Source of the DNA: a virus
Length of the DNA: 64,000 nucleotides
Strand: one strand, 5' to 3'
IMG/VR virus record: IMGVR_UViG_3300005617_000004
Coordinates: 1 to 64,000 of that record
The translations under genes were made by a program, and so were the position numbers. A model generated the notes under the pieces. It was not told the origin of the DNA. It worked only from the letters and a program-made list of their open reading frames with translations, and searched no databases. How positions within the stretch are numbered: position 1 is the first letter of the stretch; each line of letters opens with the position of its first letter. Positions 24,810-35,551 of the stretch are shown here, one piece after another.

Positions 24810-25328
24810 ATGATCGCCGCCCTGCTGTGTCCAGGCCCCTCCCTCGCCGACACCTGCGTGTCGGACGTGTCGCTCGGCGTGTTCGACGTGGTGATCGCGG
24901 TCAACCGCGCGATCATGCTGCGACCCGGCATCGAGAAGCTGATCCACTGGCACGCCTGTGGGGACTGGGACACCCTGTACTCGATCCCGTCGAAGCCGAC
25001 GGTCGGCATCTGCTCCCAGCGCGACGTGGCGCGGATCACGCAGAACGGGCAGCACGCGTCGTTCTATGCCGGACTGCGCTGGGAGGCATGGGAAGACCTG
25101 GGCGTGTCGCCGGGCTACTCGACGATCGCGGGTATCGCTTTGGCGGCGAAGCTCGGCGCGGAGCACCTCGTGGTGTTCGGTGACGACAAGAACGGGTTGT
25201 TCGACTGGGACGGGACGCCCGGCCGGCTGCGGAACGGCGACCGGTGGGACAAGGAGCGCACGCTGCAGGACCGGGCCATCGCGAAGCTGAAGCTCGACGT
25301 CCGGTACGTCAGCAAGGTGGCGGTATGA
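24810..25328 (+). CDS. glycosyltransferase/MptE-like Rossmann protein
   Basis: PGPSL, VIAVN, GA..LVVFG.D motifs. Confidence 0.55.
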   Translation: MIAALLCPGPSLADTCVSDVSLGVFDVVIAVNRAIMLRPGIEKLIHWHACGDWDTLYSIPSKPTVGICSQRDVARITQNGQHASFYAGLRWEAWEDLGVSPGYSTIAGIALAAKLGAEHLVVFGDDKNGLFDWDGTPGRLRNGDRWDKERTLQDRAIAKLKLDVRYVSKVAV

Positions 25329-25909
25329 CCAAGGACCTGCCGTACGTGGTGTGTGCGTTCTACACCGACGACGACATCTACCGCGGCTATGCGGAGACGC
25401 TGCGCGAGTCGCTGGTCGCGCACCAGCTGCCGCACGACATCACCAAGCTGCCGGCCGACCACTTCAAGGGGCACTGGAAGGCAGCGTGCCGGTGGAAGCC
25501 GCGGTTCATCGCTGCCATGCTGCTGCGGCACTGCTTGAAGGACGTGCTGTATCTCGACGCGGACGCGGCGGTGCTGTCGCACCCGACGCTGTTCGACCGG
25601 TTTGAAGGGGACCTCGGCGTGCATCTGCGGCCTCCTGGCGAGCTGTTCGCGTCGACGATCTACGTGAAGAACAGCGACGCGGGGCAGAAGGCCGTCATGC
25701 GTTGGTGGGAGCACGTCGAGCAAGACGAGAAGAACGACGACCAGACCATGCTGCAGCGCACGGTCGACGAGCTGCGCGGAGAGGTTTCCGTCGTCAATCT
25801 CCCATCGACCTACGCCTACAAGTTCGCCCAGTCACCCGCCGAGGCGGTGATCGGGCAGTATCAGGCGAGTCGCAGGGTGCGGGCGCTGAACGGCGGGAAG
25901 GCGCCGTGA
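25325..25909 (+). CDS. nucleotide-diphospho-sugar transferase (GT-A)
   Basis: WKP.FI, VLYLDADA, DDQ..L motifs. Confidence 0.75.
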   Translation: MTKDLPYVVCAFYTDDDIYRGYAETLRESLVAHQLPHDITKLPADHFKGHWKAACRWKPRFIAAMLLRHCLKDVLYLDADAAVLSHPTLFDRFEGDLGVHLRPPGELFASTIYVKNSDAGQKAVMRWWEHVEQDEKNDDQTMLQRTVDELRGEVSVVNLPSTYAYKFAQSPAEAVIGQYQASRRVRALNGGKAP

Positions 25910-26586
25910 TCCGCGTCTACATCGGCACGCAGCCCGAGCAGAAGCTCGCCTGTGAGGTGCTGAAGTATTCGATCACTGCGCGTGCGACGGAGCCAGTGTC
26001 GTTCTTCGAGATCACCGACAAGACCAACCGCTACGCGATGACGGGCTTCTCCTTCGCGCGCTGGTACGTGCCGAAGTTGGCGAAAGAAAACGGCGATCAG
26101 ACGGCGATCTACATGGACGCCGACATCGTCGTGCTCGGCGACATCGCGGCCCTTGAGCACGCTGCTGGCGAGAAGCCCACGCTCGCGCGGCCGACATCCG
26201 ATGGGCGGTACTTCACCAGCGTGATGCGACTCAACATCGCGCGCATCAACTGGGATGTGGGCGGTCTTCTCGTCGACGGATTCGCCGGGCTGCCCGAGTG
26301 GCTGCACAACGCAATCATGTGGGCCGCGTCGAACTCTCCGTGGCGCGCCGACTTCGGCGAACTTAGCGCGCGCTGGAACGACCTGGACTTGGTGAAGGAT
26401 GGTACGCAAGCATTGCACTACACCGACCTCAAGCGGCAGCCCTGGCGGTATGCGGGGCACCCGTTTGGCTACGTGTGGCAAGCCGAGTTGAAGTCGGCGC
26501 TTGCAGACAAAGCGATCTCGATGGCGCTGGTGCAGGACGAGATCGCGAGGGGGCACGTGCGCGGCGATGTGCTGACGGTGACCTGA
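25906..26586 (+). CDS. glycosyltransferase family 8-like
   Basis: T.FSFARW.VP, AIYMDAD, WN.LD, LHYT...QPW. Confidence 0.8.
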   Translation: MIRVYIGTQPEQKLACEVLKYSITARATEPVSFFEITDKTNRYAMTGFSFARWYVPKLAKENGDQTAIYMDADIVVLGDIAALEHAAGEKPTLARPTSDGRYFTSVMRLNIARINWDVGGLLVDGFAGLPEWLHNAIMWAASNSPWRADFGELSARWNDLDLVKDGTQALHYTDLKRQPWRYAGHPFGYVWQAELKSALADKAISMALVQDEIARGHVRGDVLTVT

Positions 26587-26645
26587 TATTGCGCGGACAA
26601 GAGCGCCGCGCGCACTATCGGGTCATCGGCGCTGAAGAAGACCCC

Positions 26646-26672
26646 TTGACACCCTAGCGGGCTCGATAGTGT
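26646..26672 (+). promoter_or_regulatory. promoter of tRNA array 1
   Basis: TTGACA and TAGTGT (15-bp spacer); leader ATG 7 nt downstream, i.e. near-leaderless. Confidence 0.6.
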
Positions 26673-26679
26673 CGCGGGC

Positions 26680-26808
26680 ATGGACCTCATACTCCCATCC
26701 AGCAGAACAGCGAAAGCAATGACGTGGCATCGCCCCGTCGTGGCCGGTTGCTTTATTGCTGGTGATCGCACCGGCAATGAAAAGCCGGGACGGTTCGGGG
26801 GTTCGTGA
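26680..26808 (+). CDS. attenuator leader peptide 1 (MDLILPSSRTAKAMTWHRPVVAGCFIAGDRTGNEKPGRFGGS)
   Basis: 42 codons, 37 distinct; lies between promoter and terminator; its end overlaps the antiterminator. Confidence 0.75.
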   Translation: MDLILPSSRTAKAMTWHRPVVAGCFIAGDRTGNEKPGRFGGS

Positions 26809-26874
26809 GGCACTAGGACCGTAAGTCCACCCTCTCCGAACCCCGGGCCCGCAAAGGCTCGGGGTTTTTCTTTC
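26798..26874 (+). terminator. attenuator 1: antiterminator/terminator
   Basis: terminator AACCCCGGGCC-CGCAAA-GGCTCGGGGTT+TTTCTTT (26839-26873); GGGGTTCG (26798) pairs with CGAACCCC (26837). Confidence 0.85.
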
Positions 26875-26900
26875 TATAACTCTATACTGTGGCCTGTCAC

Positions 26901-26974
26901 GGCTGAGTCGCTCAACGGCAGGGCGCACGTTTGAAACACGTGAGACGGTGGTTCGACTCCACCTTCAGCCACCA
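26901..26974 (+). tRNA. tRNA-Phe(GAA)
   Basis: cloverleaf, loop TTGAAAC, CCA. Confidence 0.9.
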
Positions 26975-26977
26975 TAT

Positions 26978-27053
26978 TGGTGTGAAGCATAACGGGTTAT
27001 GCACCTCTCTGTTAAAGAGGACCAACGGGGTTCGAGTCCCTGCGCACCAGCCA
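26978..27053 (+). tRNA. tRNA-Asn(GTT)
   Basis: cloverleaf, loop CTGTTAA, CCA. Confidence 0.9.
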
Positions 27054-27082
27054 TTTTCTTACGTAGCAGTATTTCTTGTTAC

Positions 27083-27157
27083 GCGGTCGTAACTCAATCG
27101 GAAGAGTCCCGCCTTCTAAGCGGAGAGATACGGGTTCGAGCCCTGTCGGCCGCGCCA
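27083..27157 (+). tRNA. tRNA-Arg(TCT)
   Basis: cloverleaf, loop CTTCTAA, CCA. Confidence 0.9.
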
Positions 27158-27161
27158 TTCT

Positions 27162-27233
27162 CGCGTCGTAGCTCAGCGGAAGAGCAGCTCGGTCCTAACG
27201 AGAAGGCCAGAGGTTCGATCCCTCTCGACGCGG
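27162..27233 (+). tRNA. tRNA-Arg(CCT)
   Basis: cloverleaf, loop GTCCTAA; CTA instead of CCA. Confidence 0.8.
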
Positions 27234-27242
27234 CTATTTCAC

Positions 27243-27318
27243 GGTCCTATCGTCTAGCAGCCTAGGATGACTGGTTCTCAGCCAGTAGACACGAGTGCGA
27301 ACCTCGTTAGGACTACCA
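27243..27318 (+). tRNA. tRNA-Glu(CTC)
   Basis: cloverleaf, loop TTCTCAG, CCA. Confidence 0.88.
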
Positions 27319-27320
27319 TC

Positions 27321-27484
27321 GCCAGTGCAGCACGGAAGGACGTGCAAACAAGTGCAACGCTTATCAGGATCGACCGGCGGCCGACGGGCGCCTGCATCAT
27401 GAATAATGGGCACAGTAGGTCCCTCCCTGGACGTGTCACCCAATAGCCCGACGGGGCAGCCGGTGTCGAACCCGGCCACTGGCC
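27321..27484 (+). ncRNA. tRNA-like RNA with ~110-nt insert replacing the anticodon arm
   Basis: acceptor GCCAGTG/CACTGGC, D arm GCAC/GTGC, T arm GCCGG/CCGGC. Confidence 0.6.
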
Positions 27485-27589
27485 TTTTTCAGCGCGCCCC
27501 TGCTCCGGGGGCCTTCTCAGCGCGACAGTCAGGCGATACGAGGAGTACGCCGTGTACGAAAGCATAAGCTGTCATGGAGACTTCTTCAC

Positions 27590-27661
27590 GGCGCTATCGT
27601 CCAACCGGAAGGATACGAGGCCTTCAACCTCACGATGTCGGTTCGACTCCGACTAGCGCTA
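27590..27661 (+). tRNA. tRNA-Glu(TTC)
   Basis: cloverleaf, loop CCTTCAA. Confidence 0.82.
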
Positions 27662-27670
27662 CTTTTCCAC

Positions 27671-27746
27671 GCCCGAATAGATCAATGGATAGATCGCGAC
27701 GCTACGGACGTCGAGGCTGAAGGTTCGAGTCCTTCTTCGGGTACCA
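27671..27746 (+). tRNA. tRNA-Arg(ACG)
   Basis: cloverleaf, loop CTACGGA, CCA. Confidence 0.9.
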
Positions 27747-27752
27747 CTTCAC

Positions 27753-27827
27753 GCGGGATTAGGTCAGTGGCAGACCGTCTCTTTTACATGGAGAATGCCG
27801 GGGGTTCGATTCCCTCATCCCGTACCA
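27753..27827 (+). tRNA. tRNA-Val(TAC)
   Basis: cloverleaf, loop TTTACAT, CCA. Confidence 0.9.
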
Positions 27828-27834
27828 GTTTCAA

Positions 27835-27910
27835 TGGTCTGTAGCTCATCGGCCAGAGCGCTTCCCTGACACGGAAGAGGCAGTGAGTTCAATTCTCGCC
27901 AGACCAACCA
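27835..27910 (+). tRNA. tRNA-Val(GAC)
   Basis: cloverleaf, loop CTGACAC, CCA. Confidence 0.9.
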
Positions 27911-27970
27911 ACGGTCTGCGGTGGCCACCGCAGCGTAAGCCCGGGAGTGATTCTCGGGGCCACGTTTCAT

Positions 27971-28045
27971 GGGGGCTTAGTGATAATGGTAGCACGTCTG
28001 CCTTGCAAGCAAACAGCGGGAGTTCGATTCTCCCAGCCTCCACCA
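27971..28045 (+). tRNA. tRNA-Ala(TGC)
   Basis: cloverleaf, loop CTTGCAA, G3:U70, CCA. Confidence 0.9.
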
Positions 28046-28096
28046 GATCCGCTTACCGCCCCTGGTCACGGATGTAAAACTCAGACCGGGGCACCT

Positions 28097-28171
28097 GTCT
28101 CCATAGTCCAGCGGAACGGACACTTCCCTGTCACGGAAGAAACCCGAGTTCGACTCTCGGTGGGGACGCCA
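28097..28171 (+). tRNA. tRNA-Asp(GTC)
   Basis: cloverleaf, loop CTGTCAC, G73, CCA. Confidence 0.9.
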
Positions 28172-28176
28172 TTTAC

Positions 28177-28253
28177 CGGAATGTAGCTCAGTCTAGTAGA
28201 GCGCTTGCTTCGGGAGCAAGAGGCCGTGGGAGCAAAGCCCGCCATTCCGACCA
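28177..28253 (+). tRNA. tRNA-Pro(CGG)
   Basis: cloverleaf, loop TTCGGGA; atypical T loop AGCAAAG. Confidence 0.85.
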
Positions 28254-28260
28254 TTCACAT

Positions 28261-28337
28261 CAGACCGTAGCTCAGCCTAGGAGAGCGCCACTTTGGGGTA
28301 GTGGAGGTCGCAGGCGCACATCCTGTCGGTCTGACCA
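28261..28337 (+). tRNA. tRNA-Pro(GGG)
   Basis: cloverleaf, loop TTGGGGT; atypical T loop CGCACAT. Confidence 0.85.
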
Positions 28338-28343
28338 TTTTCA

Positions 28344-28415
28344 GGGGGAGATCCGGGTCCGAATCCCGGTCTCGCGGCGACGGTCGCGAGTCTCGTCTAA
28401 CGGTAGGACGCCCCC
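28344..28415 (+). ncRNA. circularly permuted tRNA-like RNA (T arm, closed acceptor hairpin, D arm)
   Basis: GGGGG...CCGGG-TCCGAAT-CCCGG, CTCGCGGC-GACG-GTCGCGAG, GTCTAACGGTAGGAC, CCCCC. Confidence 0.65.
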
Positions 28416-28451
28416 GCTTTCATTCACCAACACCTCGGAAAGGAGGTCACT

Positions 28452-29000
28452 ATGCCCGGCGGACGCTGCCTCGTGCTCAATGCGAGCTTCGAGTTCCTTC
28501 ACATCACCAACACGTGGTTCGATTCGCTTCGTCTGCTTCGTCGCGGCAAGGTGACCGCCATCAAGAACTACCCGGTGCCGGCCAGATCCGAGAAGGACCT
28601 CGCGCTGATCCCGGCGGTGGCGGTGCTCAAGACCTACATCTCGACGCCGCGCAAGAAGAGTCACTTCACGCTGCCGACCCACCGCAACATCCTGATCCGC
28701 GATGGGTTCAAGTGTGGGTACTGCGCGTGCAAGCTGACGCTCGGCACGGTGACCAAGGATCACGTGATCCCGCGGTCGAAGGGCGGTCAGGACGTGCTGA
28801 CCAACGTCGTGGCGGCTTGCAAGCGGTGCAACACCCGCAAGGCGGACAAGACGCCCAGCGAGGCTGGCCTGACGCTGCTGGCGGTGCCGAGGGCGCTCAA
28901 CGAAGAAGAGAAGCTGACGATCGTGGTCAAGACGCACAAGGCACCCGAGCGCGCATTGTGGAAGGAGGCGCTCGAGGAGTTGAAGGTGAAGCTGTTCTGA
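28452..29000 (+). CDS. HNH endonuclease (McrA-like)
   Basis: LVLNAS, RD...CGYC, T.DHVIPRSKGG, N.V.AC..CN..K; strong RBS AAGGAGGT. Confidence 0.9.
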   Translation: MPGGRCLVLNASFEFLHITNTWFDSLRLLRRGKVTAIKNYPVPARSEKDLALIPAVAVLKTYISTPRKKSHFTLPTHRNILIRDGFKCGYCACKLTLGTVTKDHVIPRSKGGQDVLTNVVAACKRCNTRKADKTPSEAGLTLLAVPRALNEEEKLTIVVKTHKAPERALWKEALEELKVKLF

Positions 29001-29031
29001 TTTCTCCGGGCCGCCCATGGGCCCGGTTTCT

Positions 29032-29106
29032 CGGGGTGTAGCTCAACAGTAGAGCAACGCGTTTGGGGCGCGAAGGTAGCTGGCGCGACACCAGTCATCC
29101 CGACCA
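29032..29106 (+). tRNA. tRNA-Pro(TGG)
   Basis: cloverleaf, loop TTTGGGG, CCA. Confidence 0.82.
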
Positions 29107-29109
29107 TTT

Positions 29110-29191
29110 GAGTGAAGTGTTCTAGCCAGCCGGGCTGGCGGCGGATTGCAACCCCGCTGACATTGCCGTTCGACTCGGCCTTCACTCTCCA
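29110..29191 (+). tRNA. tRNA-Cys(GCA), 8/4 acceptor/T-stem
   Basis: GAGTGAAG/CTTCACTC, loop TTGCAAC, T stem GCCG/CGGC, U73-CCA. Confidence 0.8.
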
Positions 29192-29195
29192 TCAC

Positions 29196-29270
29196 GCGCC
29201 CGTAGCTCAATAGTAGAGCACTCCGCTCTTATCGGAGGGGTTGAAGGTCCAAGTCCTTCCGGGTGTACCA
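29196..29270 (+). tRNA. tRNA-Lys(CTT)
   Basis: cloverleaf, loop CTCTTAT, CCA. Confidence 0.88.
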
Positions 29271-29275
29271 TCTCC

Positions 29276-29349
29276 GTCCGCAAAGCGTTACAGTAGCGTA
29301 CTACCTTGCCATGGTAGGGGCCCGAGTGCGACTCTCGGTGCGGACTCCA
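29276..29349 (+). tRNA. tRNA-Gly(GCC)
   Basis: cloverleaf, loop TTGCCAT, U73-CCA. Confidence 0.88.
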
Positions 29350-29354
29350 TTTCT

Positions 29355-29430
29355 GCCGTCGTAGCTCAGCTGGAAGAGCATCTCTTTCCGAAAGAGAAGG
29401 CCAGAGGTTCGACCCCTCTCGGCGGCGCCA
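29355..29430 (+). tRNA. tRNA-Arg(CCG)
   Basis: cloverleaf, loop TTCCGAA, CCA. Confidence 0.9.
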
Positions 29431-29435
29431 TTCAC

Positions 29436-29507
29436 CGCCATGTAGCTCAATAGCGAGAGCGAGTCTTTCATACGGACAGGATCGGGGTGCGATTCCCTGC
29501 TTGGCGA
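29436..29507 (+). tRNA. tRNA-Met(CAT) elongator (or Ile2)
   Basis: cloverleaf, loop TTCATAC; no encoded CCA. Confidence 0.78.
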
Positions 29508-29513
29508 CTTCAC

Positions 29514-29589
29514 TGGCCATTCGTCTAACGGAAGGACCGCCTTCTTATAAATGGCAGATCGACGGGTTCGACTCCCTCATGGCCAACCA
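29514..29589 (+). tRNA. tRNA-Ile(TAT)
   Basis: cloverleaf, loop CTTATAA, A73-CCA. Confidence 0.78.
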
Positions 29590-29593
29590 TCAC

Positions 29594-29668
29594 GCTGTCG
29601 TAGCTCAGTTGTAGAGCGCCGCTTTCGTACTGCGGAGGTCGCAGGATCAACCCCTGTCGACAGCACCA
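29594..29668 (+). tRNA. tRNA-Thr(CGT)
   Basis: cloverleaf, loop TTCGTAC, CCA. Confidence 0.85.
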
Positions 29669-29674
29669 ATTCAT

Positions 29675-29750
29675 GCGGATGAAGCAGCACTGGCGCTGCG
29701 CCTGCCTTCCAAGCAGGAGAAAGCGGGTTCGAGCCCCGTCGTCCGCTCCA
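29675..29750 (+). tRNA. tRNA-Gly(TCC)
   Basis: cloverleaf, loop CTTCCAA, U73-CCA. Confidence 0.9.
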
Positions 29751-29753
29751 TAT

Positions 29754-29827
29754 GCTGGTCTGAGGTAACGCTAGCCTGCGGCCCTTGTATCGCCGACGCC
29801 AGGGTTGAACTCCCTGGACCAGCACCA
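29754..29827 (+). tRNA. tRNA-Thr(TGT)
   Basis: cloverleaf, loop CTTGTAT, CCA. Confidence 0.82.
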
Positions 29828-29834
29828 TCTTCAC

Positions 29835-29906
29835 GCTGCCATAGCCGAGTAGTTAGGCGCCTTCTTGGTAAGAAGGAGATCGTGGGTGCAAATCCCACTG
29901 GTAGCT
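29835..29906 (+). tRNA. tRNA-Thr(GGT)
   Basis: cloverleaf, loop TTGGTAA. Confidence 0.88.
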
Positions 29907-29911
29907 CATTT

Positions 29912-29985
29912 GCACCTATAGCTCAATGGCAGAGCTTTCGTCTGATACACGAAAGACCGATGTTCGATTCATCGTAGGTGCACCA
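29912..29985 (+). tRNA. tRNA-Ile(GAT)
   Basis: cloverleaf, loop CTGATAC, CCA. Confidence 0.9.
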
Positions 29986-29989
29986 TCAT

Positions 29990-30060
29990 AGGAAGCGTCG
30001 CTGGGCGAGTAGCGGACTCCAAACCCGCTGGGCCGCGTTCAAATCGCGGGCTTCCTGCCA
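29990..30060 (+). tRNA. tRNA-Trp(CCA)
   Basis: loop CTCCAAA, very short D arm, G73-CCA. Confidence 0.8.
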
Positions 30061-30067
30061 TCTACAT

Positions 30068-30142
30068 GTTGTTCGTCGTCTAGCAGCAAGACGCTGGTTT
30101 GTGGCGCCAGAAACGCGGGTGCGATTCCCGTCGAGCAACCCA
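30068..30142 (+). tRNA. tRNA-His(GTG)
   Basis: G-1:C73, loop TTGTGGC, CCA. Confidence 0.88.
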
Positions 30143-30147
30143 TTCAC

Positions 30148-30223
30148 GGAGCAGAGGCGGTACAGGTTCCGCACCGAGTTTTTACCTCGGGGTCAGTGGG
30201 TTCGAGCCCCACCTGCTCTACCA
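30148..30223 (+). tRNA. tRNA-Lys(TTT)
   Basis: cloverleaf, loop TTTTTAC, CCA. Confidence 0.88.
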
Positions 30224-30251
30224 TTGACACCCAGACAGACCACAGTACAAG
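30224..30251 (+). promoter_or_regulatory. promoter of tRNA array 2
   Basis: TTGACA-16 bp-TACAAG; leader ATG 9 nt downstream. Confidence 0.6.
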
Positions 30252-30260
30252 GCGATCATC

Positions 30261-30344
30261 ATGAACGCGCTATTGCTCCAATCCTCGCAGTCATATCTGC
30301 TCTCGCTGAGTCAGCGAGTGGGGTTCGGAGCTACGTTGCGCTGA
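30261..30344 (+). CDS. attenuator leader peptide 2 (MNALLLQSSQSYLLSLSQRVGFGATLR)
   Basis: codons 4-18 are all Leu/Gln/Ser/Tyr; overlaps antiterminator. Confidence 0.8.
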   Translation: MNALLLQSSQSYLLSLSQRVGFGATLR

Positions 30345-30398
30345 GGTGCCATCCCTCCCACGTTCTCCCGAACCCCAGGCCGACCGCCTGGGGTTTTT
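30319..30398 (+). terminator. attenuator 2: antiterminator/terminator
   Basis: terminator AACCCCAGGC-CGACC-GCCTGGGGTT+TTT (30371-30398); TGGGGTTCGG (30319) pairs with CCGAACCCCA (30368). Confidence 0.88.
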
Positions 30399-30433
30399 GC
30401 GTTTGACAACTCTATATCGTGGCAGCGAAACAC

Positions 30434-30517
30434 GTACGAGTGGCGGAATCGGCATACGCGCCAGCTTGAGGTGCTGGTGTCTTCGGACAACTCCGGGTTC
30501 AAGTCCCGGCTCGTACA
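30434..30517 (+). tRNA. tRNA-Leu(GAG)
   Basis: long variable arm, loop TTGAGGT. Confidence 0.9.
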
Positions 30518-30522
30518 GTCAA

Positions 30523-30609
30523 TGGGGAGTGATGGAACAGAAGACATGCCAGTTTCAGAAGCTGGTGCCCTAAGCAGGCGTGAGAGTGCGAATCTCTTCT
30601 CCCCAACCA
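30523..30609 (+). tRNA. tRNA-Leu(CAG)
   Basis: long variable arm, loop TTCAGAA, CCA. Confidence 0.88.
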
Positions 30610-30612
30610 TTT

Positions 30613-30695
30613 GCGCCCGTGTCGTAACGGAAGCCGAGGCATGCTCAAACCATGCTGCCCTTCGGGGCGTACAAGTTCAACTCTTGTCGGGCGCA
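30613..30695 (+). tRNA. tRNA-Leu(CAA)
   Basis: long variable arm, loop CTCAAAC. Confidence 0.88.
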
Positions 30696-30702
30696 GTCAT
30701 TT

Positions 30703-30791
30703 GGATCTTGCAGCGGGATGGACACCGCACCTGTTTGCTAAACAGGCGGGCCCCACAAGGGCTCCCGGTTCGACTCCGGCAAAATCCGCCA
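30703..30791 (+). tRNA. tRNA-Ser(GCT), 8/4 fold
   Basis: loop TTGCTAA, long variable arm, T stem CCGG/CCGG, G73-CCA. Confidence 0.85.
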
Positions 30792-30795
30792 TCAC

Positions 30796-30884
30796 GGGAA
30801 GTTTCATAAGCCGGACCGGGTCCGGGCCACGCTGTAAACGTGCTCCCTAACGGGCGAGGTGTTCGACTCACCAACTTCCCACCA
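30796..30884 (+). tRNA. tRNA-Tyr(GTA), 8/4 fold
   Basis: GGGAAGTT/AACTTCCC, loop CTGTAAA, T stem GGTG/CACC, CCA. Confidence 0.82.
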
Positions 30885-30889
30885 TTCAT

Positions 30890-30974
30890 GGAAGGCGAAG
30901 CAGCAGCGGTGCGGCATCGGTCTCGAAAACCGAGGTGCTCTTCGGGGCATGGTGTTCGACTCACCCGTCTTCCT
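30890..30974 (+). tRNA. tRNA-Ser(CGA), 8/4 fold
   Basis: GGAAGGCG/CGTCTTCC, loop CTCGAAA, long variable arm. Confidence 0.85.
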
Positions 30975-30979
30975 CACAT

Positions 30980-31055
30980 TCAGGGATCGTTCAACTTGGT
31001 AGGACTCCGCGCTCTGGACGCGAGAATGCAGGTCCGAATCCTGCTCCCTGAACCA
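30980..31055 (+). tRNA. tRNA-Gln(CTG)
   Basis: cloverleaf, loop CTCTGGA, CCA. Confidence 0.88.
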
Positions 31056-31061
31056 CTTCAC

Positions 31062-31135
31062 TGACGCTTCGACTAATTTGGTAAGTCCCCTCGCTTTGAA
31101 CGAGGACAATCAGGGTTCGAGTCCCTGGGCGTCAA
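31062..31135 (+). tRNA. tRNA-Gln(TTG)
   Basis: cloverleaf, loop CTTTGAA. Confidence 0.88.
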
Positions 31136-31643
31136 TTTCTCTGAGTCGGCGCTTCCAGAAAAATATAGTAGAGCGGCCTGCGTCGAACTGCTTCATACAG
31201 ACCGCCGCCGATGCTTTGGGGTGCGCGCGGATGAAGGCTGCGAACCGATACATTATGTCAGGGCGCTCTATGCCGTGGTAGAAATGGTTGGAGTGGTAGC
31301 CCCCGCTGCATTTACGAGAGCAGAACAGCGGGCGCCGCTGCGCGAATCGCACTTTATGAGGCTTTCGCATGAAGTAGATTTTGCAATTCGGGCATAGGAC
31401 TTTTACGGGCGGTAGGCGTTTGTGAAGACCGTTGTGGGCCTGCACGCTCATGAGTTGCAAGTTTTCAATTCGGTTATCGTGGCCGTCATGGTTTATGTGG
31501 TGTACGATCTCTTCACTGATAAGGGCACGTCCTAGGAACTGCTCCATAACGTAGCGGTGTTCCAGCTGTCGATCCGTCTTACTCCAGTGCGCCATTTTGT
31601 AGGGGCCATGTTTGTACACGGCTCGGGGCTTACACGTATGCAT
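31110..31643 (-). CDS. HNH homing endonuclease
   Basis: EHRYVME..LGR.L...EIVHHIN....DNRIENL; CPNC and FCSRKC; low GC. Confidence 0.85.
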   Translation of the reverse strand: MHTCKPRAVYKHGPYKMAHWSKTDRQLEHRYVMEQFLGRALISEEIVHHINHDGHDNRIENLQLMSVQAHNGLHKRLPPVKVLCPNCKIYFMRKPHKVRFAQRRPLFCSRKCSGGYHSNHFYHGIERPDIMYRFAAFIRAHPKASAAVCMKQFDAGRSTIFFWKRRLREIDAQGLEP

Positions 31644-31987
31644 GCGAGGAGTCTAACGGTAAGGATGCGCAAGCAACGGCGACCGCGATCAGTCTTGCAC
31701 ATCCGGCGCGCACGCCGGGCAGCCGCAGCGAATGACCGCCTCTGCTTTCTCGCGCAGCTTCCCTTCGCGGCGCACGCGCTTCTTGGCGAGTCGTTTCATC
31801 TCGCGCTCCAGAGCGCAGAACCGACAGCCCTTGTTGCCGCAGTGGCCGACCGGATCGTTCTTGTGCAGCCGGTGACCGACGAGCTTCTGCTCGGCGAGCG
31901 ACTGGCCGTGTTGCTTCGAGATGTTCTCGCGCCGGATGATCACCAGCTCGGTACGGTGGCGGCGTTCTGCGCGGTTGGTCATTGGCG

Positions 31988-32380
31988 TCAGTCCCACAGC
32001 GCCTGGAAGCGCTCGCCGAACAGCTTCAAGCCGCGCACCTTGATCACGTCCCGCCGGTCCGCTTCCGGGTAGTAGATGCTCTTGTCGAGCATGCAGATGT
32101 CGTCGTCCTGGCGTACGACATAGTCGAAGGCTTCGATCATCAGGTCGAGCTCGGCCTCCCACTGTTCGGAGTCGGCCTTGGACTCCGCGTCGCCGTACTC
32201 GGGCACGCAGCCCATCGGGTTGAGGCACGGGTGCCCCATCCGGTCCAGGGCTTTGAACGCCCGCAGCCGTGGCAGGATCAGCTTCGCCAGATGGACGTCG
32301 AGACCCCACATGGCGCAGTCGTCGAACCCCCGGGTGCGACGCTGCCACCACCATTTGATTTCCCGGAAGATACGGCGCAT
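31988..32380 (-). CDS. phage hypothetical protein
   Basis: RG.DD...W.LD..LA..ILPRL..F and GL.LF...F..LWD pattern. Confidence 0.7.
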   Translation of the reverse strand: MRRIFREIKWWWQRRTRGFDDCAMWGLDVHLAKLILPRLRAFKALDRMGHPCLNPMGCVPEYGDAESKADSEQWEAELDLMIEAFDYVVRQDDDICMLDKSIYYPEADRRDVIKVRGLKLFGERFQALWD

Positions 32381-32501
32381 GCCGGCACCCTAGCCGCCGC
32401 TTGCTCTCGTGCAACCCCTCCCTAGTCTCTCCATCGCACTCGGTTCCTTGACTGCTTCATCACCCAGCCGCTAGCAGTCCGGCTTGACTAAGGAGGATAC
32501 C

Positions 32502-33263
32502 ATGATGCACATCGCAAACCCGTCGACCGTCGTCACGCTGGAGGATGCCAACACCGGCAAGCCGTTCCGCGAGTACGACCATTCCCGCACCCCGGCTGGC
32601 AGCTACGTCCGGGTGGTGCTGCCGTTCGACACCGAGTACCGGTTCCGGTTCCAGTTCCCCGACACCTCCGGCACGCGCCGGCGCCTGGAGCTCGACATCG
32701 ACGGCACGACCGTGGCCAAGGACCTGATCCTGACCCACGGCGTGACGCTGGAGCGGTTCCTGGACTCCGACAAGCGGTTCAAGTTCGTGCGGGCGACGGC
32801 GGAAGGCGTGGCGAACCCTGCGTCGCCGGACAACGGCGTGATCACGGTGAAGCTGTGGCCGGAGAAGCCGGTGCAGTATCGCGACGAGCCGTATCTCGTC
32901 AGTGTGCTGCGCGGAACGAGGCCCCCGACGTCCTACACAGGTCGAGGTGCGAGCACGCAGGACTGGGGGTACAGCACTACCCTGGGCATCTCGAAAGGGG
33001 TCCAGGACTACAGCGGGGACGCCATCCGCTCGGTGTCAGGCCCCGCCTACGAACCCGGCGCCACGGCCGAAGGCGCGAAGAGCAACCAGCAGTTCGGCAC
33101 CACCGAGTGGCGCGGCGACGAGTTGTCGCAGCCGCACGTGTTCGTGTTCCAGCTGGTCGGGCAGGCCAGTGACCCGGCCCGGTTCTGCGGTGCGTGCGGG
33201 GCCGCGTACCCGTACTCGTTCACGCCCGCCAAGTTCTGCGCCGCCTGTGGGGTGCGGAAATAG
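32502..33263 (+). CDS. hypothetical protein with C-terminal double Zn ribbon
   Basis: AAGGAGG RBS; FCGACG...KFCAACG. Confidence 0.7.
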   Translation: MMHIANPSTVVTLEDANTGKPFREYDHSRTPAGSYVRVVLPFDTEYRFRFQFPDTSGTRRRLELDIDGTTVAKDLILTHGVTLERFLDSDKRFKFVRATAEGVANPASPDNGVITVKLWPEKPVQYRDEPYLVSVLRGTRPPTSYTGRGASTQDWGYSTTLGISKGVQDYSGDAIRSVSGPAYEPGATAEGAKSNQQFGTTEWRGDELSQPHVFVFQLVGQASDPARFCGACGAAYPYSFTPAKFCAACGVRK

Positions 33264-33385
33264 GCTCTTGACTCAATAGCATTCTCACTAGGGTAGCCAG
33301 GGACCGTCGGCTGGGCTGATAACCTAACACGCCGACTCATCACCGCGTATCGTGGGCTGGCGGTCACCATTCTTTCACATCACAT

Positions 33386-33462
33386 TGCGGGATGGAGTAG
33401 CAGCTAACTCGTTAGCCTCATAAGCTAAAGATCGCAGGTGCCAAGTCCTGCTCCCGCAACCA
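33386..33462 (+). tRNA. tRNA-Met(CAT), initiator-like body
   Basis: TGCGGGATGGAG start, loop CTCATAA, CCA; lacks the 3 G-C anticodon-stem pairs. Confidence 0.8.
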
Positions 33463-33465
33463 TAT

Positions 33466-33546
33466 GCTTGGGTAGCTCAGCGAAAGAGCACTCGGTCCTG
33501 TAACGGGACTGAGAGGTCGGTGGTTCAAGTCCATCCCCGAGCGCCA
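33466..33546 (+). ncRNA. tRNA-like RNA with extended 8-10 bp anticodon stem
   Basis: normal acceptor/D/T arms and CCA; CTCGGTCC-TGTAACG-GGACTGAG. Confidence 0.7.
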
Positions 33547-33592
33547 GTTCGTGTCCACGACACAAACGTCAGCCCCAGCCGCAGGTGGGTCC

Positions 33593-33762
33593 TAACAGCG
33601 GCGCAGGAAACCTCACTAGTATCCTACTAATCGGGTCGATCCTTGGTGCGGTCACGAGCCAACGCGTGACGTCATTCGGGTTTCGACGTTGCGGCAGGGA
33701 CGGCCCGCAGCAATGCGCCCGGGATCGACTGCCGGTGTTTTCAGCTGCGCCGAAACCCGTTG
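33593..33762 (+). ncRNA. putative structured RNA (multibranch)
   Basis: CGGCGCAG/CTGCGCCG, GTCGATCC/GGATCGAC, GTCACG/CGTGAC, GTTGCGG/CCGCAGC pairings. Confidence 0.45.
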
Positions 33763-33777
33763 TACCAAGGAACACCC

Positions 33778-34203
33778 ATGGCCCGCAAGCGCGCGAACAA
33801 GACCGCCAAGTTCGGCCCCAACGTGTCGTTCTGCTCCGACGGCAAGACCGGCGACTTCGCGCTCGACGTCAAGGCGTTCGGTCTGAACGTCCAGGCGCAG
33901 GGCAACACCAAGAAGCTGCGGATCAGCAAGCTGTTGAGCCACATGCCGGTGATCGGCAAGATGGTCGGCGGTTTGGGCGACGCGGCGCCGACCCCGAGTG
34001 CCGAGCCGACCGACGCCGAGATCCTGGCCCGGTTCAAGACCCGGGACACGTACGTCGCGTACCTGTCGCAGAGGATATACGCCTTCAACGCGCAGCAGGC
34101 TCAAGACAAGGCAGCGTTCGACGCGCAGATGGGGAAGGCCTGCGAGCGTGGGTCCGTCCTGTACCCAGAGCCGAAGGCGAAGCCGGCCGCCAAGAAGTCC
34201 TGA
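33778..34203 (+). CDS. hypothetical basic protein
   Basis: AAGGA RBS; typical codon usage. Confidence 0.65.
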   Translation: MARKRANKTAKFGPNVSFCSDGKTGDFALDVKAFGLNVQAQGNTKKLRISKLLSHMPVIGKMVGGLGDAAPTPSAEPTDAEILARFKTRDTYVAYLSQRIYAFNAQQAQDKAAFDAQMGKACERGSVLYPEPKAKPAAKKS

Positions 34204-34205
34204 CC

Positions 34206-34535
34206 ATGTACGAAATCGCCCCGACCACTGTCGCCTTCCCGCGCACCCCAACCGTGCTCGCCGTCCTGCAGCTCCGGTTCCCGGACCACTACAGCGTCAG
34301 CAAGCTGCCCCTGGCCGACGCCGACCGCGACCAGCTGGCGATGCGGCTCGAGTCCGCGATGATGGAGGTGCACCGGCTGAGCGGCATCGTCGACAAGAAC
34401 CCGGACGGGTATCCGGACCCGGCGACCGGCACGGTGGTGAAGCCGGAGTACCTCGTGCTACGGCTCAGCAGCGCGGTGCGGGACGCCAACGTGATGCGGG
34501 AGTATCTCGCGCTCAATGATGTGTGGAGACACTGA
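34206..34535 (+). CDS. hypothetical protein
   Basis: follows previous stop by 2 nt. Confidence 0.6.
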   Translation: MYEIAPTTVAFPRTPTVLAVLQLRFPDHYSVSKLPLADADRDQLAMRLESAMMEVHRLSGIVDKNPDGYPDPATGTVVKPEYLVLRLSSAVRDANVMREYLALNDVWRH

Positions 34536-34538
34536 CAC

Positions 34539-34615
34539 GCCCCCGTAGCACAACGGCAGTGCAGCCGCCGACTAGAGGCGGAAGGCCGCGGGTTCGATTC
34601 CCGTCGGGGGTTCCA
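34539..34615 (+). tRNA. atypical tRNA, apparent anticodon CTA (amber)
   Basis: GCCCCCG/CGGGGGT, U73-CCA, stem CCGCC/GGCGG around loop GACTAGA. Confidence 0.6.
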
Positions 34616-34840
34616 CTGTGGAGTTCGCTATGGCTCTGTACCGCACCTGCCTCGACGCGACCATTTTCAATTCGGGGCAGTTTCTGCCGCGCCGCCTGCG
34701 GGCTCGCTGGGTCAATGCGCAGAGGCAGTACCTGCGCGGCGTCCGCTACGAGGCGATCATCCAGCCGCTGTACGACTCTTTGTCTCTTGACCTGCTGACC
34801 GGACTCCCTAGCGTCGCACCCATGAAGCCCATCTCCCTAG

Positions 34841-35185
34841 TCTAGCTCCCCCACGTATGTCTACGCCCTGGTCCGCACCGACCTGACCCTCCCGCAGCAA
34901 CTGGTTCAAGCTGCGCACGCCACCCATGAGTCGGGCGGCCACTTCGGCGCCCCGGCTGGCTGCCACCTGATCGTCCTTGCCGTTGCCGACGAAGCCGCCC
35001 TGCGTGCTCACCACGCACGCCTTGTAGCCGCCGGCATCCCCCTCGTCCTGTTCACCGAGCCCGATCTCGGCGACGCCGCTACGGCGCTCGCCACGGGCCC
35101 ACTCACTCAAGCCGATAGGCTCCATTTCCGGGGCATGTCGCTCTGGAAGCCCGTTGGCGCTGTTCCGGAGATGAAGCCATGCTGA
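34841..35185 (+). CDS. peptidyl-tRNA hydrolase 2-like protein lacking an in-frame ATG/GTG/TTG start
   Basis: YVYALVRTDL...QLVQAAHA, LIVLAV.DE, F.EPDLG...TALA; not in ORF track. Confidence 0.7.
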   Translation, partial: SSSPTYVYALVRTDLTLPQQLVQAAHATHESGGHFGAPAGCHLIVLAVADEAALRAHHARLVAAGIPLVLFTEPDLGDAATALATGPLTQADRLHFRGMSLWKPVGAVPEMKPC

Positions 35186-35487
35186 CCGACACCGACCGCG
35201 CCCTCCTCCACGCCTGCCGCGCGAAGCGCTATGCGCTGACCAAGGCGCAGATCGCTACCAAGGTGATTACCCGGGCGCCGCACCCGCCGGAAGGCTGCGG
35301 AGAGGCTCAGGCAGCGCAGAACGTTCAGGCGGCCGACATCACCGCACTGCACATCATGGAGGCGGAGATCCGCGGCCTCAAGCCGGCGCATTCGGAGAAG
35401 CTGTGGTCGGTGCAGCTGCGGCTGCTGAACTACCGGAGCCCGCATCCGGAGGTGAAGGCGCGGTTTCAGGCGTGGCTGATGGCCTGA
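35179..35487 (+). CDS. hypothetical protein
   Basis: overlaps end of Pth2-like ORF. Confidence 0.6.
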   Translation: MLTDTDRALLHACRAKRYALTKAQIATKVITRAPHPPEGCGEAQAAQNVQAADITALHIMEAEIRGLKPAHSEKLWSVQLRLLNYRSPHPEVKARFQAWLMA

Positions 35488-35502
35488 GCCACCAAACGAA
35501 GA

Positions 35503-35524
35503 ACCCAGGGCTTGCGCCCTGGGT
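35503..35524. terminator. terminator hairpin between convergent genes
   Basis: ACCCAGGGC-TTGC-GCCCTGGGT; T-rich tail on minus strand. Confidence 0.7.
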
Positions 35525-35551
35525 CCGTCGAACCAGCCAAAGCCGTAAGGC

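What the first reader, a model, noticed from the sequence alone, without database searches (positions are those of the whole stretch)
26646..31135. tRNA arrays gated by codon-matched leader-peptide attenuators: a candidate viral sensor of host tRNA depletion
Seen: both arrays have the same upstream architecture: TTGACA promoter, short leader ORF, GGGGTTCG near the ORF end, CGAACCCC forming the 5' arm of a U-tailed terminator, then tRNAs. The tRNAs are split by amino acid: array 1 has 28 tRNAs for 16 amino acids and none for L/S/Q/Y; array 2 has only Leu x3, Ser x2, Tyr, Gln x2. Leader 1 encodes all 16 array-1 amino acids and no Q or Y; leader 2 has a 15-codon block of only L/S/Q/Y. Established: trp/his-type attenuation couples ribosome stalling to antiterminator folding, and host anticodon nucleases (PrrC, VapC, PARIS AriB) destroy tRNAs during infection while phage tRNAs can compensate. 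Inference: a ribosome that finishes the leader masks GGGGTTCG so the terminator forms; stalling on any depleted tRNA permits read-through and supplies the matching tRNA set. I know of no described leader-peptide attenuator whose output is tRNA genes.
Basis: partly seen in the sequence, partly recalled or inferred. Interest (0 to 1): 0.97.

Follow-up and report, generated by a model that had tools for sequence, protein, structure and literature searches.

The report
Leader-peptide attenuators gating phage tRNA arrays
In this 110-kb phage each of the two big blocks of tRNA genes sits behind a tiny test gene, spelled in the codons that block decodes and wired to a switchable transcription stop, so the phage probably makes a tRNA set only when ribosomes run short of it; I found no published account of this trp-operon-style control for tRNA genes.

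Summary
Both tRNA arrays (28 tRNAs for 16 amino acids; 8 tRNAs for Leu/Ser/Tyr/Gln) are preceded by paralogous units: promoter, short ORF, antiterminator, U-tailed terminator.

- Leader 2 holds the longest L/S/Q/Y-only codon run in all six frames of the genome (15; the next is 7).
- Leader 1 holds the only L/S/Q/Y-free run with all 16 other amino acids. Its codons address 26 of the 28 array-1 tRNAs.
- Folding shows a trp-like four-segment design. The antiterminator survives a ribosome parked anywhere in the matched block and is lost once the ribosome nears the stop codon.

The same logic, with different amino-acid partitions, appears in an unrelated 271-kb phage and in cultured Caulobacter phage phiCbK. 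A metagenomic relative keeps the unit 234/236 identical while the neighbouring tRNAs diverge.

Nothing is shown experimentally. Translation is inferred, there is no Shine-Dalgarno, and the start is predicted to be leaderless. Host anticodon nucleases are only one possible trigger.

I found no published description. This scan has noted the same class before on other DNA. I rate it a new variant of ribosome-mediated attenuation, of high interest.

The parts
26646..26672 (+). Promoter P1: -35 TTGACA (26646-26651), 15-nt spacer, -10 TAGTGT (26667-26672)
   Evidence: Read from the sequence. It fits the phage's own recurring promoter pattern, TTGAC[AT] followed by 14-16 nt and TAGnnT, seen at six other places in the genome. 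It is not mapped experimentally.
26680..26808 (+). Leader ORF 1 (42 codons plus stop). The ATG is 8 nt after the -10, so the mRNA is predicted to be leaderless, and there is no Shine-Dalgarno.
   Evidence: Translation. It addresses 26/28 array-1 tRNAs and uses 37/42 distinct codons. GC3 is 0.60 against 0.86 in phage genes.
26685..26696 (+). Segment 1 of attenuator 1; it pairs with segment 2 in the untranslated full-length RNA
   Evidence: Minimum-free-energy fold, z = -4.1
26704..26802 (+). 33-codon sensing block: all 16 array-1 amino acids and no L/S/Q/Y
   Evidence: This is the only such run in six frames of the genome.
26792..26812 (+). Segment 2, the 5' arm of the antiterminator (core GGGGTTCG at 26798-26805). 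It contains the stop codon at 26806-26808.
   Evidence: The isolated antiterminator hairpin folds at -30.9 kcal/mol. P(2:3) is 0.99 or more for a ribosome A site at codons 1-35, 0.75 at codon 36, 0.14 at codon 37, and 0 from codon 38.
26836..26876 (+). Segments 3 and 4: intrinsic terminator (stem 26838-26867, 12 pairs) and T-run. Segment 3 (core CGAACCCC at 26837-26844) is shared with the antiterminator.
   Evidence: Terminator scan; -22.7 kcal/mol
26878..26893 (+). Conserved 16-nt motif between the terminator and the first tRNA; function unknown
   Evidence: There are only two copies in the genome, one after each terminator. A variant is kept in relative L104.
26901..30223 (+). tRNA array 1: 28 tRNAs for 16 amino acids, with an embedded HNH endonuclease gene (28452-29000)
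   Evidence: Pfam HNH match
30224..30251 (+). Promoter P2: -35 TTGACA (30224-30229) directly after tRNA-Lys, and a weak -10 TACAAG (30246-30251). There is no terminator between array 1 and this unit, so transcripts from P1 can also enter it.
   Evidence: Sequence; alignment of the two units; terminator scan
30261..30344 (+). Leader ORF 2 (27 codons plus stop)
   Evidence: Translation; it addresses 8/8 array-2 tRNAs.
30270..30314 (+). 15-codon block of only Leu/Ser/Gln/Tyr. 12 of its 15 codons are read by the eight array-2 tRNAs.
   Evidence: It is the longest such run in the genome; the next is 7. Codons, anticodons.
30275..30285 (+). Segment 1 of attenuator 2; it pairs with segment 2 when the RNA is untranslated
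   Evidence: Minimum-free-energy fold, z = -3.35
30319..30337 (+). Segment 2 of attenuator 2 (core GGGGTTCG at 30320-30327)
   Evidence: The antiterminator hairpin folds at -26.8 kcal/mol. P(2:3) is 0.96 for the A site at codons 1-15, 0.82 at codon 16, 0.12 at codon 17, and 0 for codons 18-27; with the A site on the stop codon (position 28) the calculation gives 0.87, because the assumed 30-nt footprint has then moved past segment 2.
30368..30401 (+). Segments 3 and 4 of attenuator 2: intrinsic terminator (stem 30370-30396) and T-run
   Evidence: Terminator scan; -20.7 kcal/mol. One stem pair is G-C in unit 1 and A-T in unit 2, a change on both sides.
30408..30423 (+). Second copy of the conserved 16-nt post-terminator motif
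30434..31135 (+). tRNA array 2: Leu GAG, Leu CAG, Leu CAA, Ser GCT, Tyr GTA, Ser CGA, Gln CTG, Gln TTG

Best explanation
Each tRNA array is gated by a ribosome-mediated (leader-peptide) transcription attenuator whose sensor is a short ORF written in the codons that the array decodes.

Transcription starts at P1 or P2, and a ribosome translates the leader, probably from a leaderless or nearly leaderless AUG.

If every codon is decoded promptly, the ribosome reaches the end of the ORF while RNA polymerase is making segments 3 and 4. It covers segment 2 (GGGGTTCG and its flanks), so segment 3 pairs with segment 4, the U-tailed terminator forms, and the array is not transcribed.

If the ribosome lags at any hungry codon in the sensing block (codons up to about 35 of leader 1, up to about 16 of leader 2), segment 2 stays free. 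It then forms the stronger antiterminator with segment 3, and polymerase reads into the tRNA genes.

The product relieves the shortage that caused the stall. The circuit is therefore negative feedback on decoding capacity, resolved into two tRNA sets: 16 amino acids, and Leu/Ser/Tyr/Gln.

Shown from sequence: the anatomy, the statistics, the alternative folds, the conservation, and the recurrence in other phages.

Inferred: translation of the leaders, stall-dependent read-through, and the physiological trigger. Candidate triggers are rare-codon demand of phage genes, tRNA loss to host nucleases, and general host shut-off.
For: (1) Composition and codon matching are far beyond chance. Leader 1 is enriched in codons that are rare in the phage's own genes but have a dedicated phage tRNA, such as ATA, AGA, ACA, TTT, ATT, AAT and AAA.

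(2) Both units have a strong intrinsic terminator directly before the first tRNA. Each also has an extended antiterminator that shares the terminator's 5' arm and is more stable: -30.9 against -22.7 kcal/mol, and -26.8 against -20.7 kcal/mol.

(3) Before segment 4 is made, the antiterminator dominates (P 0.96-0.99). It stays so with a 30-nt ribosome footprint at any codon of the matched block, then collapses once the A site passes codon 36 (leader 1) or codon 16 (leader 2). The matched blocks end where sensing would end.

(4) The full untranslated RNAs fold as 1:2 plus 3:4, with z = -4.1 and -3.4. Segment 1 differs between the two units in step with the flanks of segment 2. The terminator has a G-C to A-T double change.

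(5) In a soil-metagenome relative (L104, L129) the unit from promoter to T-run is 234/236 identical. By contrast, tRNA-Phe is 46/74 identical, tRNA-Asn is 54/76, the upstream genes are about 91-94%, and the sequence just upstream of the promoter cannot be aligned.

(6) There are independent instances with different partitions.
- 271-kb phage G001: one leader block holds exactly the 15 amino acids of its 18-tRNA array and addresses 18/18 tRNAs. The other holds only C/S/H/L/R before a Cys-Ser-His-Leu-Leu-Ser-Arg array. Each has a terminator and an ORF-end antiterminator.
- Caulobacter phage phiCbK: gp083 has a 34-codon block of only S/L/T/K/A/P/H before a 13-tRNA array for exactly those seven amino acids. 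A second leader matches a Tyr/Phe/Val/Ile/Gln/Arg array.
- In all six leader/array pairs, the leader's own array set gives the highest fraction of matching residues.

(7) Rfam finds no T-box or other known leader in the region.
Against: - No Shine-Dalgarno precedes either ORF, while other genes of this phage have one. Translation therefore rests on a predicted leaderless start, or for leader 2 on an AAGG present only in transcripts arriving from array 1.
- The host is unknown. Caulobacterales is only hinted at by promoter form and weak DNA-polymerase hits.
- The sensing codons are mostly single, not runs as in his or trp. Sensitivity would depend on tight kinetic coupling.
- After a ribosome has passed segment 1, the 1:2 pairing could in principle re-form around a ribosome stalled mid-ORF and favour termination. 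Equilibrium folds of the full-length RNA prefer the terminator at most ribosome positions.
- Leader 1 contains five Leu/Ser codons that array 1 does not serve. Two array-1 tRNAs (Arg CCT, Glu CTC) have no codon in it.
- A conserved -10-like motif after each terminator could be a second, unattenuated promoter.
- No expression data could be obtained.
Confidence: 0.75

Rival explanations
1. Translation-coupled control, but not through the intrinsic terminator. The leader ORF is translated and senses decoding speed. The output works through Rho-dependent termination on the uncoupled transcript, or through ribosome-dependent protection or processing of the precursor by RNase E or RNase P. The hairpins would be secondary.
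For: The codon matching supports any ribosome-based sensor. The conserved motif between terminator and first tRNA could be a processing or pause site. Equilibrium folds favour the terminator at most ribosome positions.
Against: For Rho the polarity is wrong: stalling would uncouple and terminate, shutting tRNA synthesis off exactly when it is needed. The ORF end overlaps an antiterminator that shares the terminator's 5' arm in all leaders examined in three lineages. A processing model does not require that geometry.
Confidence: 0.1
2. Plain insulation. The terminators end upstream transcription, the arrays are driven by a promoter after each terminator (the conserved -10-like motif), and the short ORFs are untranslated spacer.
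For: There is no Shine-Dalgarno. The conserved TATA-containing motif lies 10-20 nt before the first tRNA of each array. The third tRNA cluster (33386-33546) uses a simple promoter without an ORF.
Against: This cannot explain the composition and codon statistics, the near-perfect conservation of the ORF region, or the same matching in G001 and phiCbK. In G001 the terminator ends about 8-11 nt before the first tRNA, leaving no room for a promoter. The motif has no -35 partner at proper spacing.
Confidence: 0.07
3. Ribosome-free sensing. The string of codons in the leader RNA pairs directly with tRNA anticodons (T-box-like or sponge-like), and this changes the fold.
For: The leader carries one cognate triplet for nearly every tRNA of the array.
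Against: The triplets are in one frame, bounded by ATG and a stop that sits in the antiterminator arm. No specifier loop, T-box motif or any Rfam leader family was found. Three-base pairing without a ribosome or a T-box scaffold is too weak. The amino-acid-level purity of the blocks is a property of a reading frame.
Confidence: 0.04
4. The ORFs encode small functional peptides unrelated to tRNA control, and the terminators are ordinary.
For: phiCbK gp083 is annotated as a hypothetical protein. Leader 2 is hydrophobic and amphipathic in look.
Against: No homologues of the leader-1 peptide exist among called proteins. Peptide sequences are unrelated across lineages, yet each mirrors its own array. 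The ORF ends are embedded in antiterminators.
Confidence: 0.03

Closest known systems
Multivalent leader-peptide attenuators of enterobacterial amino-acid operons (ilvGMEDA leader: Leu/Val/Ile; thr leader: Thr/Ile) and the single-amino-acid trp, his, leu and phe leaders (textbook knowledge)
   Same: A promoter-proximal short ORF is enriched in regulatory codons. There are four RNA segments with mutually exclusive 1:2/3:4 and 2:3 pairings. A U-tailed intrinsic terminator precedes the regulated genes. The ORF stop lies in or next to segment 2. Several amino acids are sensed by one leader.
   Different: The output is tRNA genes, not biosynthetic enzymes, so the signal that makes sense is shortage of the tRNA itself. 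The sensor samples up to 16 amino acids and 26 isoacceptors, mostly with single codons instead of runs. The start is predicted to be leaderless, without a Shine-Dalgarno. The element is viral. There is no sequence homology.
T-box riboswitches upstream of aminoacyl-tRNA synthetase and amino-acid genes in Firmicutes
   Same: tRNA status is converted into antitermination at a leader terminator.
   Different: A T-box binds uncharged tRNA directly through a specifier codon and the T-box motif, without a ribosome, and senses one tRNA. Neither motif is present here: no Rfam hit even at E up to 1.
Long tRNA array (trn operon) of Anabaena PCC 7120, silent until translation is impaired (PMC8421152; repressor TrcR, PMC10272220)
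   Same: An accessory tRNA array is expressed in response to translational stress. It is the nearest published case in physiological logic.
   Different: Control is at the promoter, through direct repeats bound by a repressor. The paper does not contain the words leader, attenuation or terminator. The system is cellular, not viral.
Leaderless polycysteine short ORFs acting as cysteine-responsive attenuators in mycobacteria (bioRxiv 10.1101/834739, found; abstract only read)
   Same: This is a precedent for a leaderless short ORF serving as the sensing leader of an operon.
   Different: It senses one amino acid and controls protein-coding genes.
   Same: Both have a promoter, a short ORF built from the amino acids of the following array, an ORF-end antiterminator, a terminator, then tRNAs. 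The phiCbK promoter form (TTGACA, 17 nt, TAGGGT, ATG 7 nt later) resembles this phage's.
   Different: There is no detectable sequence similarity to the window's units. The amino-acid partitions differ. These units are undescribed in the phiCbK genome paper, so they are analogues found here, not a named family.

Membership tests
Ribosome-mediated (leader-peptide) transcription attenuator | Short ORF between promoter and terminator, with a usable translation start | tested here: inconclusive
   ORFs with ATG and stop are present. There is no Shine-Dalgarno, and the ATG lies 8 nt (unit 1) or 9 nt (unit 2) after the predicted -10, so the start would be leaderless or nearly so. Leaderless mRNAs are translated efficiently in Caulobacter (PMC4117421), but the host here is unknown.
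Ribosome-mediated (leader-peptide) transcription attenuator | Regulatory codons matching the regulated pathway are enriched in the leader | tested here: met
   The 15-codon L/S/Q/Y run is the longest in the genome. The leader-1 block is the only L/S/Q/Y-free run (20 or more codons) in the genome that contains all 16 other amino acids. 26/28 and 8/8 tRNAs are addressed.
Ribosome-mediated (leader-peptide) transcription attenuator | Intrinsic terminator upstream of the regulated genes | tested here: met
   Stems of 12 and 11 pairs with T-runs lie 33 and 37 nt before the first tRNA.
Ribosome-mediated (leader-peptide) transcription attenuator | Antiterminator mutually exclusive with the terminator | tested here: met
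   The 2:3 hairpins (-30.9 and -26.8 kcal/mol) use the terminator's 5' arm. P(2:3) is 0.96-0.99 before segment 4 exists.
Ribosome-mediated (leader-peptide) transcription attenuator | A ribosome at the end of the ORF masks the antiterminator; a ribosome stalled at the regulatory codons does not | tested here: met
   In-silico footprint scan. The antiterminator is lost once the A site passes codon 36 of 42 (unit 1) or codon 16 of 27 (unit 2), and it is intact throughout the matched blocks.
Ribosome-mediated (leader-peptide) transcription attenuator | Segment 1:2 pairing that gives termination without translation | tested here: met
   It is present in the minimum-free-energy folds of both full leaders, with different but complementary sequences. 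This is a prediction only.
Ribosome-mediated (leader-peptide) transcription attenuator | Read-through responds to translation of the leader and to supply of the cognate charged tRNA | not testable with these tools
   This needs reporter, Term-seq and Ribo-seq experiments.
Ribosome-mediated (leader-peptide) transcription attenuator | Conservation of frame and regulatory codons in relatives; covariation with the regulated genes | tested here: met
   L104 is 234/236 identical across the unit amid diverged flanks. Leaders of G001 and phiCbK each match their own arrays. No relative of intermediate divergence could be reached.
T-box riboswitch | Specifier loop and conserved T-box sequence (Rfam T-box model) | tested here: not met
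   cmscan of 25000-36000 at E up to 1 gave only tRNA-type and chance hits.

The most novel reading that the evidence does not exclude
Phages with large tRNA sets carry a general, modular gauge of decoding capacity. Each tRNA operon is gated by a translated leader that samples the very codons the operon serves. The physiological trigger would be attack on host tRNAs by anticodon nucleases and related defences. The phage would then detect which tRNA set is being destroyed and switch on only the matching replacement set.
Probability: 0.3. Interest if true: 0.95.

Novelty: new variant of a known kind. Interest (0 to 1): 0.86.

Why it matters
Why phages carry tRNA genes has been debated for some fifty years (PMC10264068). 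Codon compensation is one answer. Escape from tRNA-targeting immunity is another (PMC10264068, PMC11555353, PMC12409363).

A built-in sensor whose input is slow decoding of exactly the codons an array serves would show what the tRNAs are for, and when they are needed. It would make the question directly testable.

It would extend the classic attenuation mechanism to non-coding RNA genes and to viruses. It would also show a new sensor design: a one-codon-per-isoacceptor sampler covering up to 16 amino acids, probably on a leaderless mRNA.

The partition of tRNAs between operons would become interpretable as regulatory units. The leaders would also be compact, portable parts for reporting the availability of chosen tRNAs in vivo.

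The phiCbK analogue offers a cultured, genetically tractable system.

Tried and rejected
Searches for relatives of the window's units that found nothing useful:
- megablast and blastn against 50,697 phage records: no match.
- Glycosyltransferase neighbour in IMG/VR: none.
- Exact-motif scans of IMG/VR with the 2:3 pattern and with the 16-nt motif: only chance hits.
- This scan's own look-alike index: none.
- Leader-1 peptide against 5.8 billion proteins: no candidate.

The closest diverged relative is the contig of P0002 (57% identity in the neighbouring protein, 109,867 bp, NCBI/Logan).

It returned mostly generic terminators, and only L104 and L129 were true relatives.

My generic screen of 23 other tRNA-rich loci was weakened by tRNAs that ARAGORN misses at default threshold. 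It flagged only a weak Lys/Trp/Val candidate in L079, which I did not pursue. L059-L064 showed no clear leader.

Ideas considered and dropped:
- TAG recoding linked to the CTA-anticodon tRNA: a crude read-through test showed only neighbouring genes in the same frame.
- The third tRNA cluster as a third attenuator: it has a promoter but no ORF.
- Equilibrium folding of the full transcript as a model of the switch: it always favours the terminator and ignores the order of synthesis, so I replaced it with folding before segment 4 is made.

Full report
**Context.** The window is the first 64 kb of a complete 109,520-bp IMG/VR virus record with direct terminal repeats, at about 65% G+C. It has no close relative among 50,697 GenBank phage records. 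Many of its large proteins have no PHROG family. The best DNA-polymerase hits are Brevundimonas phages at 29% identity, and its promoters resemble those of Caulobacter phage phiCbK. A host in Caulobacterales is therefore possible but unproven.

**The observation.** ARAGORN and Rfam find the two arrays. Adding four tRNAs found at 95% threshold and one found only by Rfam brings array 1 (26901-30223) to 28 tRNAs for 16 amino acids. Adding one more 95%-threshold call, Tyr GTA, brings array 2 (30434-31135) to eight tRNAs for Leu, Ser, Tyr and Gln.

Each array is preceded by a unit with these parts:
- a -35 TTGACA
- a short ORF (26680-26808, 42 codons; 30261-30344, 27 codons)
- GGGGTTCG near the ORF end
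- CGAACCCC as the 5' arm of a strong U-tailed hairpin

The two units align as paralogues. They share the promoter, the two octamers, the terminator and a 16-nt motif after it, while the ORF bodies differ.

**Is it more than chance?** Yes, by a wide margin.
- In six frames of the whole genome, the longest run of codons for only L/S/Q/Y is the 15-codon block of leader 2; the next longest is 7.
- Of about 420 stop-free runs of 20 or more codons lacking L/S/Q/Y, only the 33-codon block of leader 1 contains all 16 other amino acids.
With standard wobble rules, leader 1 addresses 26 of the 28 array-1 tRNAs. That value is reached by 5 of 20,134 windows in phage genes and 45 of 109,022 six-frame windows.
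- Leader 1 uses 37 distinct codons in 42.
- Leader 2 addresses all eight array-2 tRNAs, and 12 of the 15 block codons are read by them.
- Leader 1 has GC3 of 0.60 against 0.86 for phage genes. It uses codons that are rare in those genes (about 2-4 per thousand) but have a dedicated phage tRNA.

One correction: leader 1 does carry two Leu and three Ser codons, at its start and as its last codon.

**RNA anatomy.** The full leaders fold significantly better than shuffles, with z = -4.1 and -3.4. Untranslated, they form a trp-like pattern:
- An early ORF segment (26685-26696; about 30275-30285) pairs with the GGGGTTCG region.
- The terminator forms downstream.

The alternative 2:3 hairpin is long and more stable than the terminator: -30.9 against -22.7 kcal/mol, and -26.8 against -20.7 kcal/mol.

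I folded the RNA as it exists before the terminator's 3' arm is made, with a 30-nt ribosome footprint placed at each codon.
- The antiterminator has probability 0.96-0.99 for every position up to codon 35 (leader 1) or codon 15 (leader 2).
- It collapses once the A site passes codon 36 or codon 16.
- The matched blocks thus fill the part of each ORF in which a stall would give read-through.
- The stop codon of leader 1 lies inside segment 2.

Differences between the paralogues keep the helices. Segment 1 changes in step with the flanks of segment 2, and one terminator pair is G-C in unit 1 and A-T in unit 2.

Equilibrium folding of complete transcripts prefers the terminator at most positions. 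The switch must therefore be kinetic, as in the classical cases.

**Weak point: initiation.** Neither ORF has a Shine-Dalgarno, although other genes of the phage do. By the phage's own promoter pattern (TTGAC[AT], 14-16 nt, TAGnnT), the -10 of unit 1 ends 8 nt before the ATG. That of unit 2 ends about 9 nt before. The transcripts would therefore be leaderless or nearly so.

This is plausible in alphaproteobacteria. Caulobacter has 375 leaderless mRNAs that are translated as well as others (PMC4117421). Leaderless sensing ORFs are reported in mycobacteria (bioRxiv 10.1101/834739). It is not shown here.

No terminator separates array 1 from unit 2. Polymerases that pass attenuator 1 therefore also meet attenuator 2, on an RNA that includes an AAGG 9 nt before the ATG.

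**Related sequences.**

(a) Two JGI metagenome contigs (L104, L129) carry a close relative.
- From 8 nt before the -35 to the T-run, 234 of 236 bases are identical.
- One change strengthens an antiterminator pair.
- tRNA-Phe is 46/74 identical and tRNA-Asn 54/76.
- The upstream genes are about 91-94% identical.
- The sequence just upstream of the promoter cannot be aligned.

The unit is under far stronger constraint than its surroundings, or was recently exchanged as a module.

(b) Homologues of the neighbouring 259-aa protein led to other tRNA-rich phages. In one of them, an unrelated 271-kb, 39% G+C record (G001), I found the same design with a different partition.
- An 18-tRNA array covers 15 amino acids (all but C/S/H/L/R). 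It lies behind a leader whose 27-codon block contains exactly those 15, and the leader as a whole addresses 18/18 tRNAs.
- A Cys-Ser-His-Leu-Leu-Ser-Arg array lies behind a leader with a 15-codon block of only L/S/H/C/R.
- Each is followed by a terminator whose 5' arm can pair with the ORF end.

(c) Prompted by earlier notes of this scan, I checked cultured phage phiCbK.
- The annotated 45-aa 'hypothetical protein' gp083 has a 34-codon block of only S/L/T/K/A/P/H.
- An annotated terminator follows it, then 13 tRNAs for exactly those seven amino acids.
- Another leader matches a Tyr/Phe/Val/Ile/Gln/Arg array.

Across the six leader/array pairs, each leader matches its own array best.

**Mechanism.** The best-supported reading is a ribosome-mediated attenuator that measures how fast the leader is decoded and lets transcription into the matching tRNA genes when decoding lags. 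That is negative feedback on decoding capacity.

The rivals each fail on the frame-specific composition, the geometry, or the recurrence:
- another translation-coupled route
- plain insulation plus a second promoter
- ribosome-free codon-anticodon pairing
- functional peptides

What sets off the switch in nature is open. Candidates are demand from phage genes for rare codons, host shut-off, and tRNA cleavage by defence nucleases (PMC10264068, PMC11555353, PMC12409363).

**Comparison and novelty.** It works like the multivalent ilvGMEDA and thr leaders, but the output is tRNA genes and the sensor is a single-codon sampler.
- It is not a T-box.
- The nearest published physiology, the stress-induced tRNA array of Anabaena, is controlled at the promoter (PMC8421152).
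- Seven full-text searches found no account of leader-peptide control of tRNA genes.
- The phiCbK genome paper does not mention it.
- This scan has reported the same class on other DNA several times. Those notes are unchecked AI leads, and I used them only to choose phiCbK and the Anabaena paper, both of which I then examined myself.

**Limits.** The one relative of intermediate divergence was out of reach. The host is unknown. The folds are predictions.

Noticed in passing
window 26878-26893 and 30408-30423: A 16-nt motif (AACTCTATAYYGTGGC) occurs only twice in the 109.5-kb genome, each time between an attenuator terminator and the first tRNA. A one-base-longer variant is kept in relative L104 although the surrounding spacer has an insertion. 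It is -10-like but has no -35 partner. It could be a processing, pause or promoter element.
   Followed up: partly
window 32484-33263 (+): This 259-aa protein with no Pfam or PHROG family has homologues, some with a C-terminal zinc-ribbon domain. They lie next to tRNA arrays in many unrelated large phages (L059-L074), often followed by a CTA-anticodon tRNA. It may have a tRNA-related function.
   Followed up: partly
window 34539-34615 (+): A tRNA with anticodon CTA would read the amber stop codon; ARAGORN labels it Pyl. A similar tRNA sits at the syntenic place in L059. A crude read-through test gave no sign of TAG recoding.
   Followed up: partly
window 33269-33546 (+): The third tRNA cluster (Met CAT, Leu TAA) has a plain promoter (TTGACT, 15 nt, TAGGGT) and a roughly 95-nt leader without any ORF. 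Not all tRNAs of this phage are behind a leader peptide.
   Followed up: yes
window 27319-27589 (+): A 270-nt tRNA-free spacer inside array 1 folds very stably (-105.5 kcal/mol). It has no Rfam match and no tRNA even at lowered threshold. Its function is unknown.
   Followed up: partly
window 28335-29000 (+) and 31110-31643 (-): An HNH endonuclease gene with a strong Shine-Dalgarno lies inside array 1, preceded by tRNA-like fragments (28335-28450). A second HNH gene on the other strand abuts the end of array 2. These suggest homing-endonuclease traffic in the tRNA region.
   Followed up: no
L104:4300-4448 versus window 26901-27053: Between two phages that are about 91-94% identical in the neighbouring genes, tRNA-Phe and tRNA-Asn are only 62% and 71% identical, with many stem changes. 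The attenuator next to them is 99% identical. The tRNA alleles seem to be replaced or to evolve very fast.
   Followed up: partly
L083 (phiCbK JX100813, 47000-53000): ARAGORN at 95% threshold finds tRNAs that are not annotated in the record (Thr GGT, His GTG, Ala TGC, Ser GCT and others). By eye, a Tyr-like tRNA lies before tRNA-Phe. The genome paper states that no Thr or Tyr tRNA exists in these phages.
   Followed up: partly
L079 (-) 6412-6501 of the reverse strand (record G003): A 29-codon ORF with two Trp, five Lys and two Val codons lies before a Lys-Trp-Val tRNA group. It is a possible further leader of the same kind, but statistically weak.
   Followed up: no
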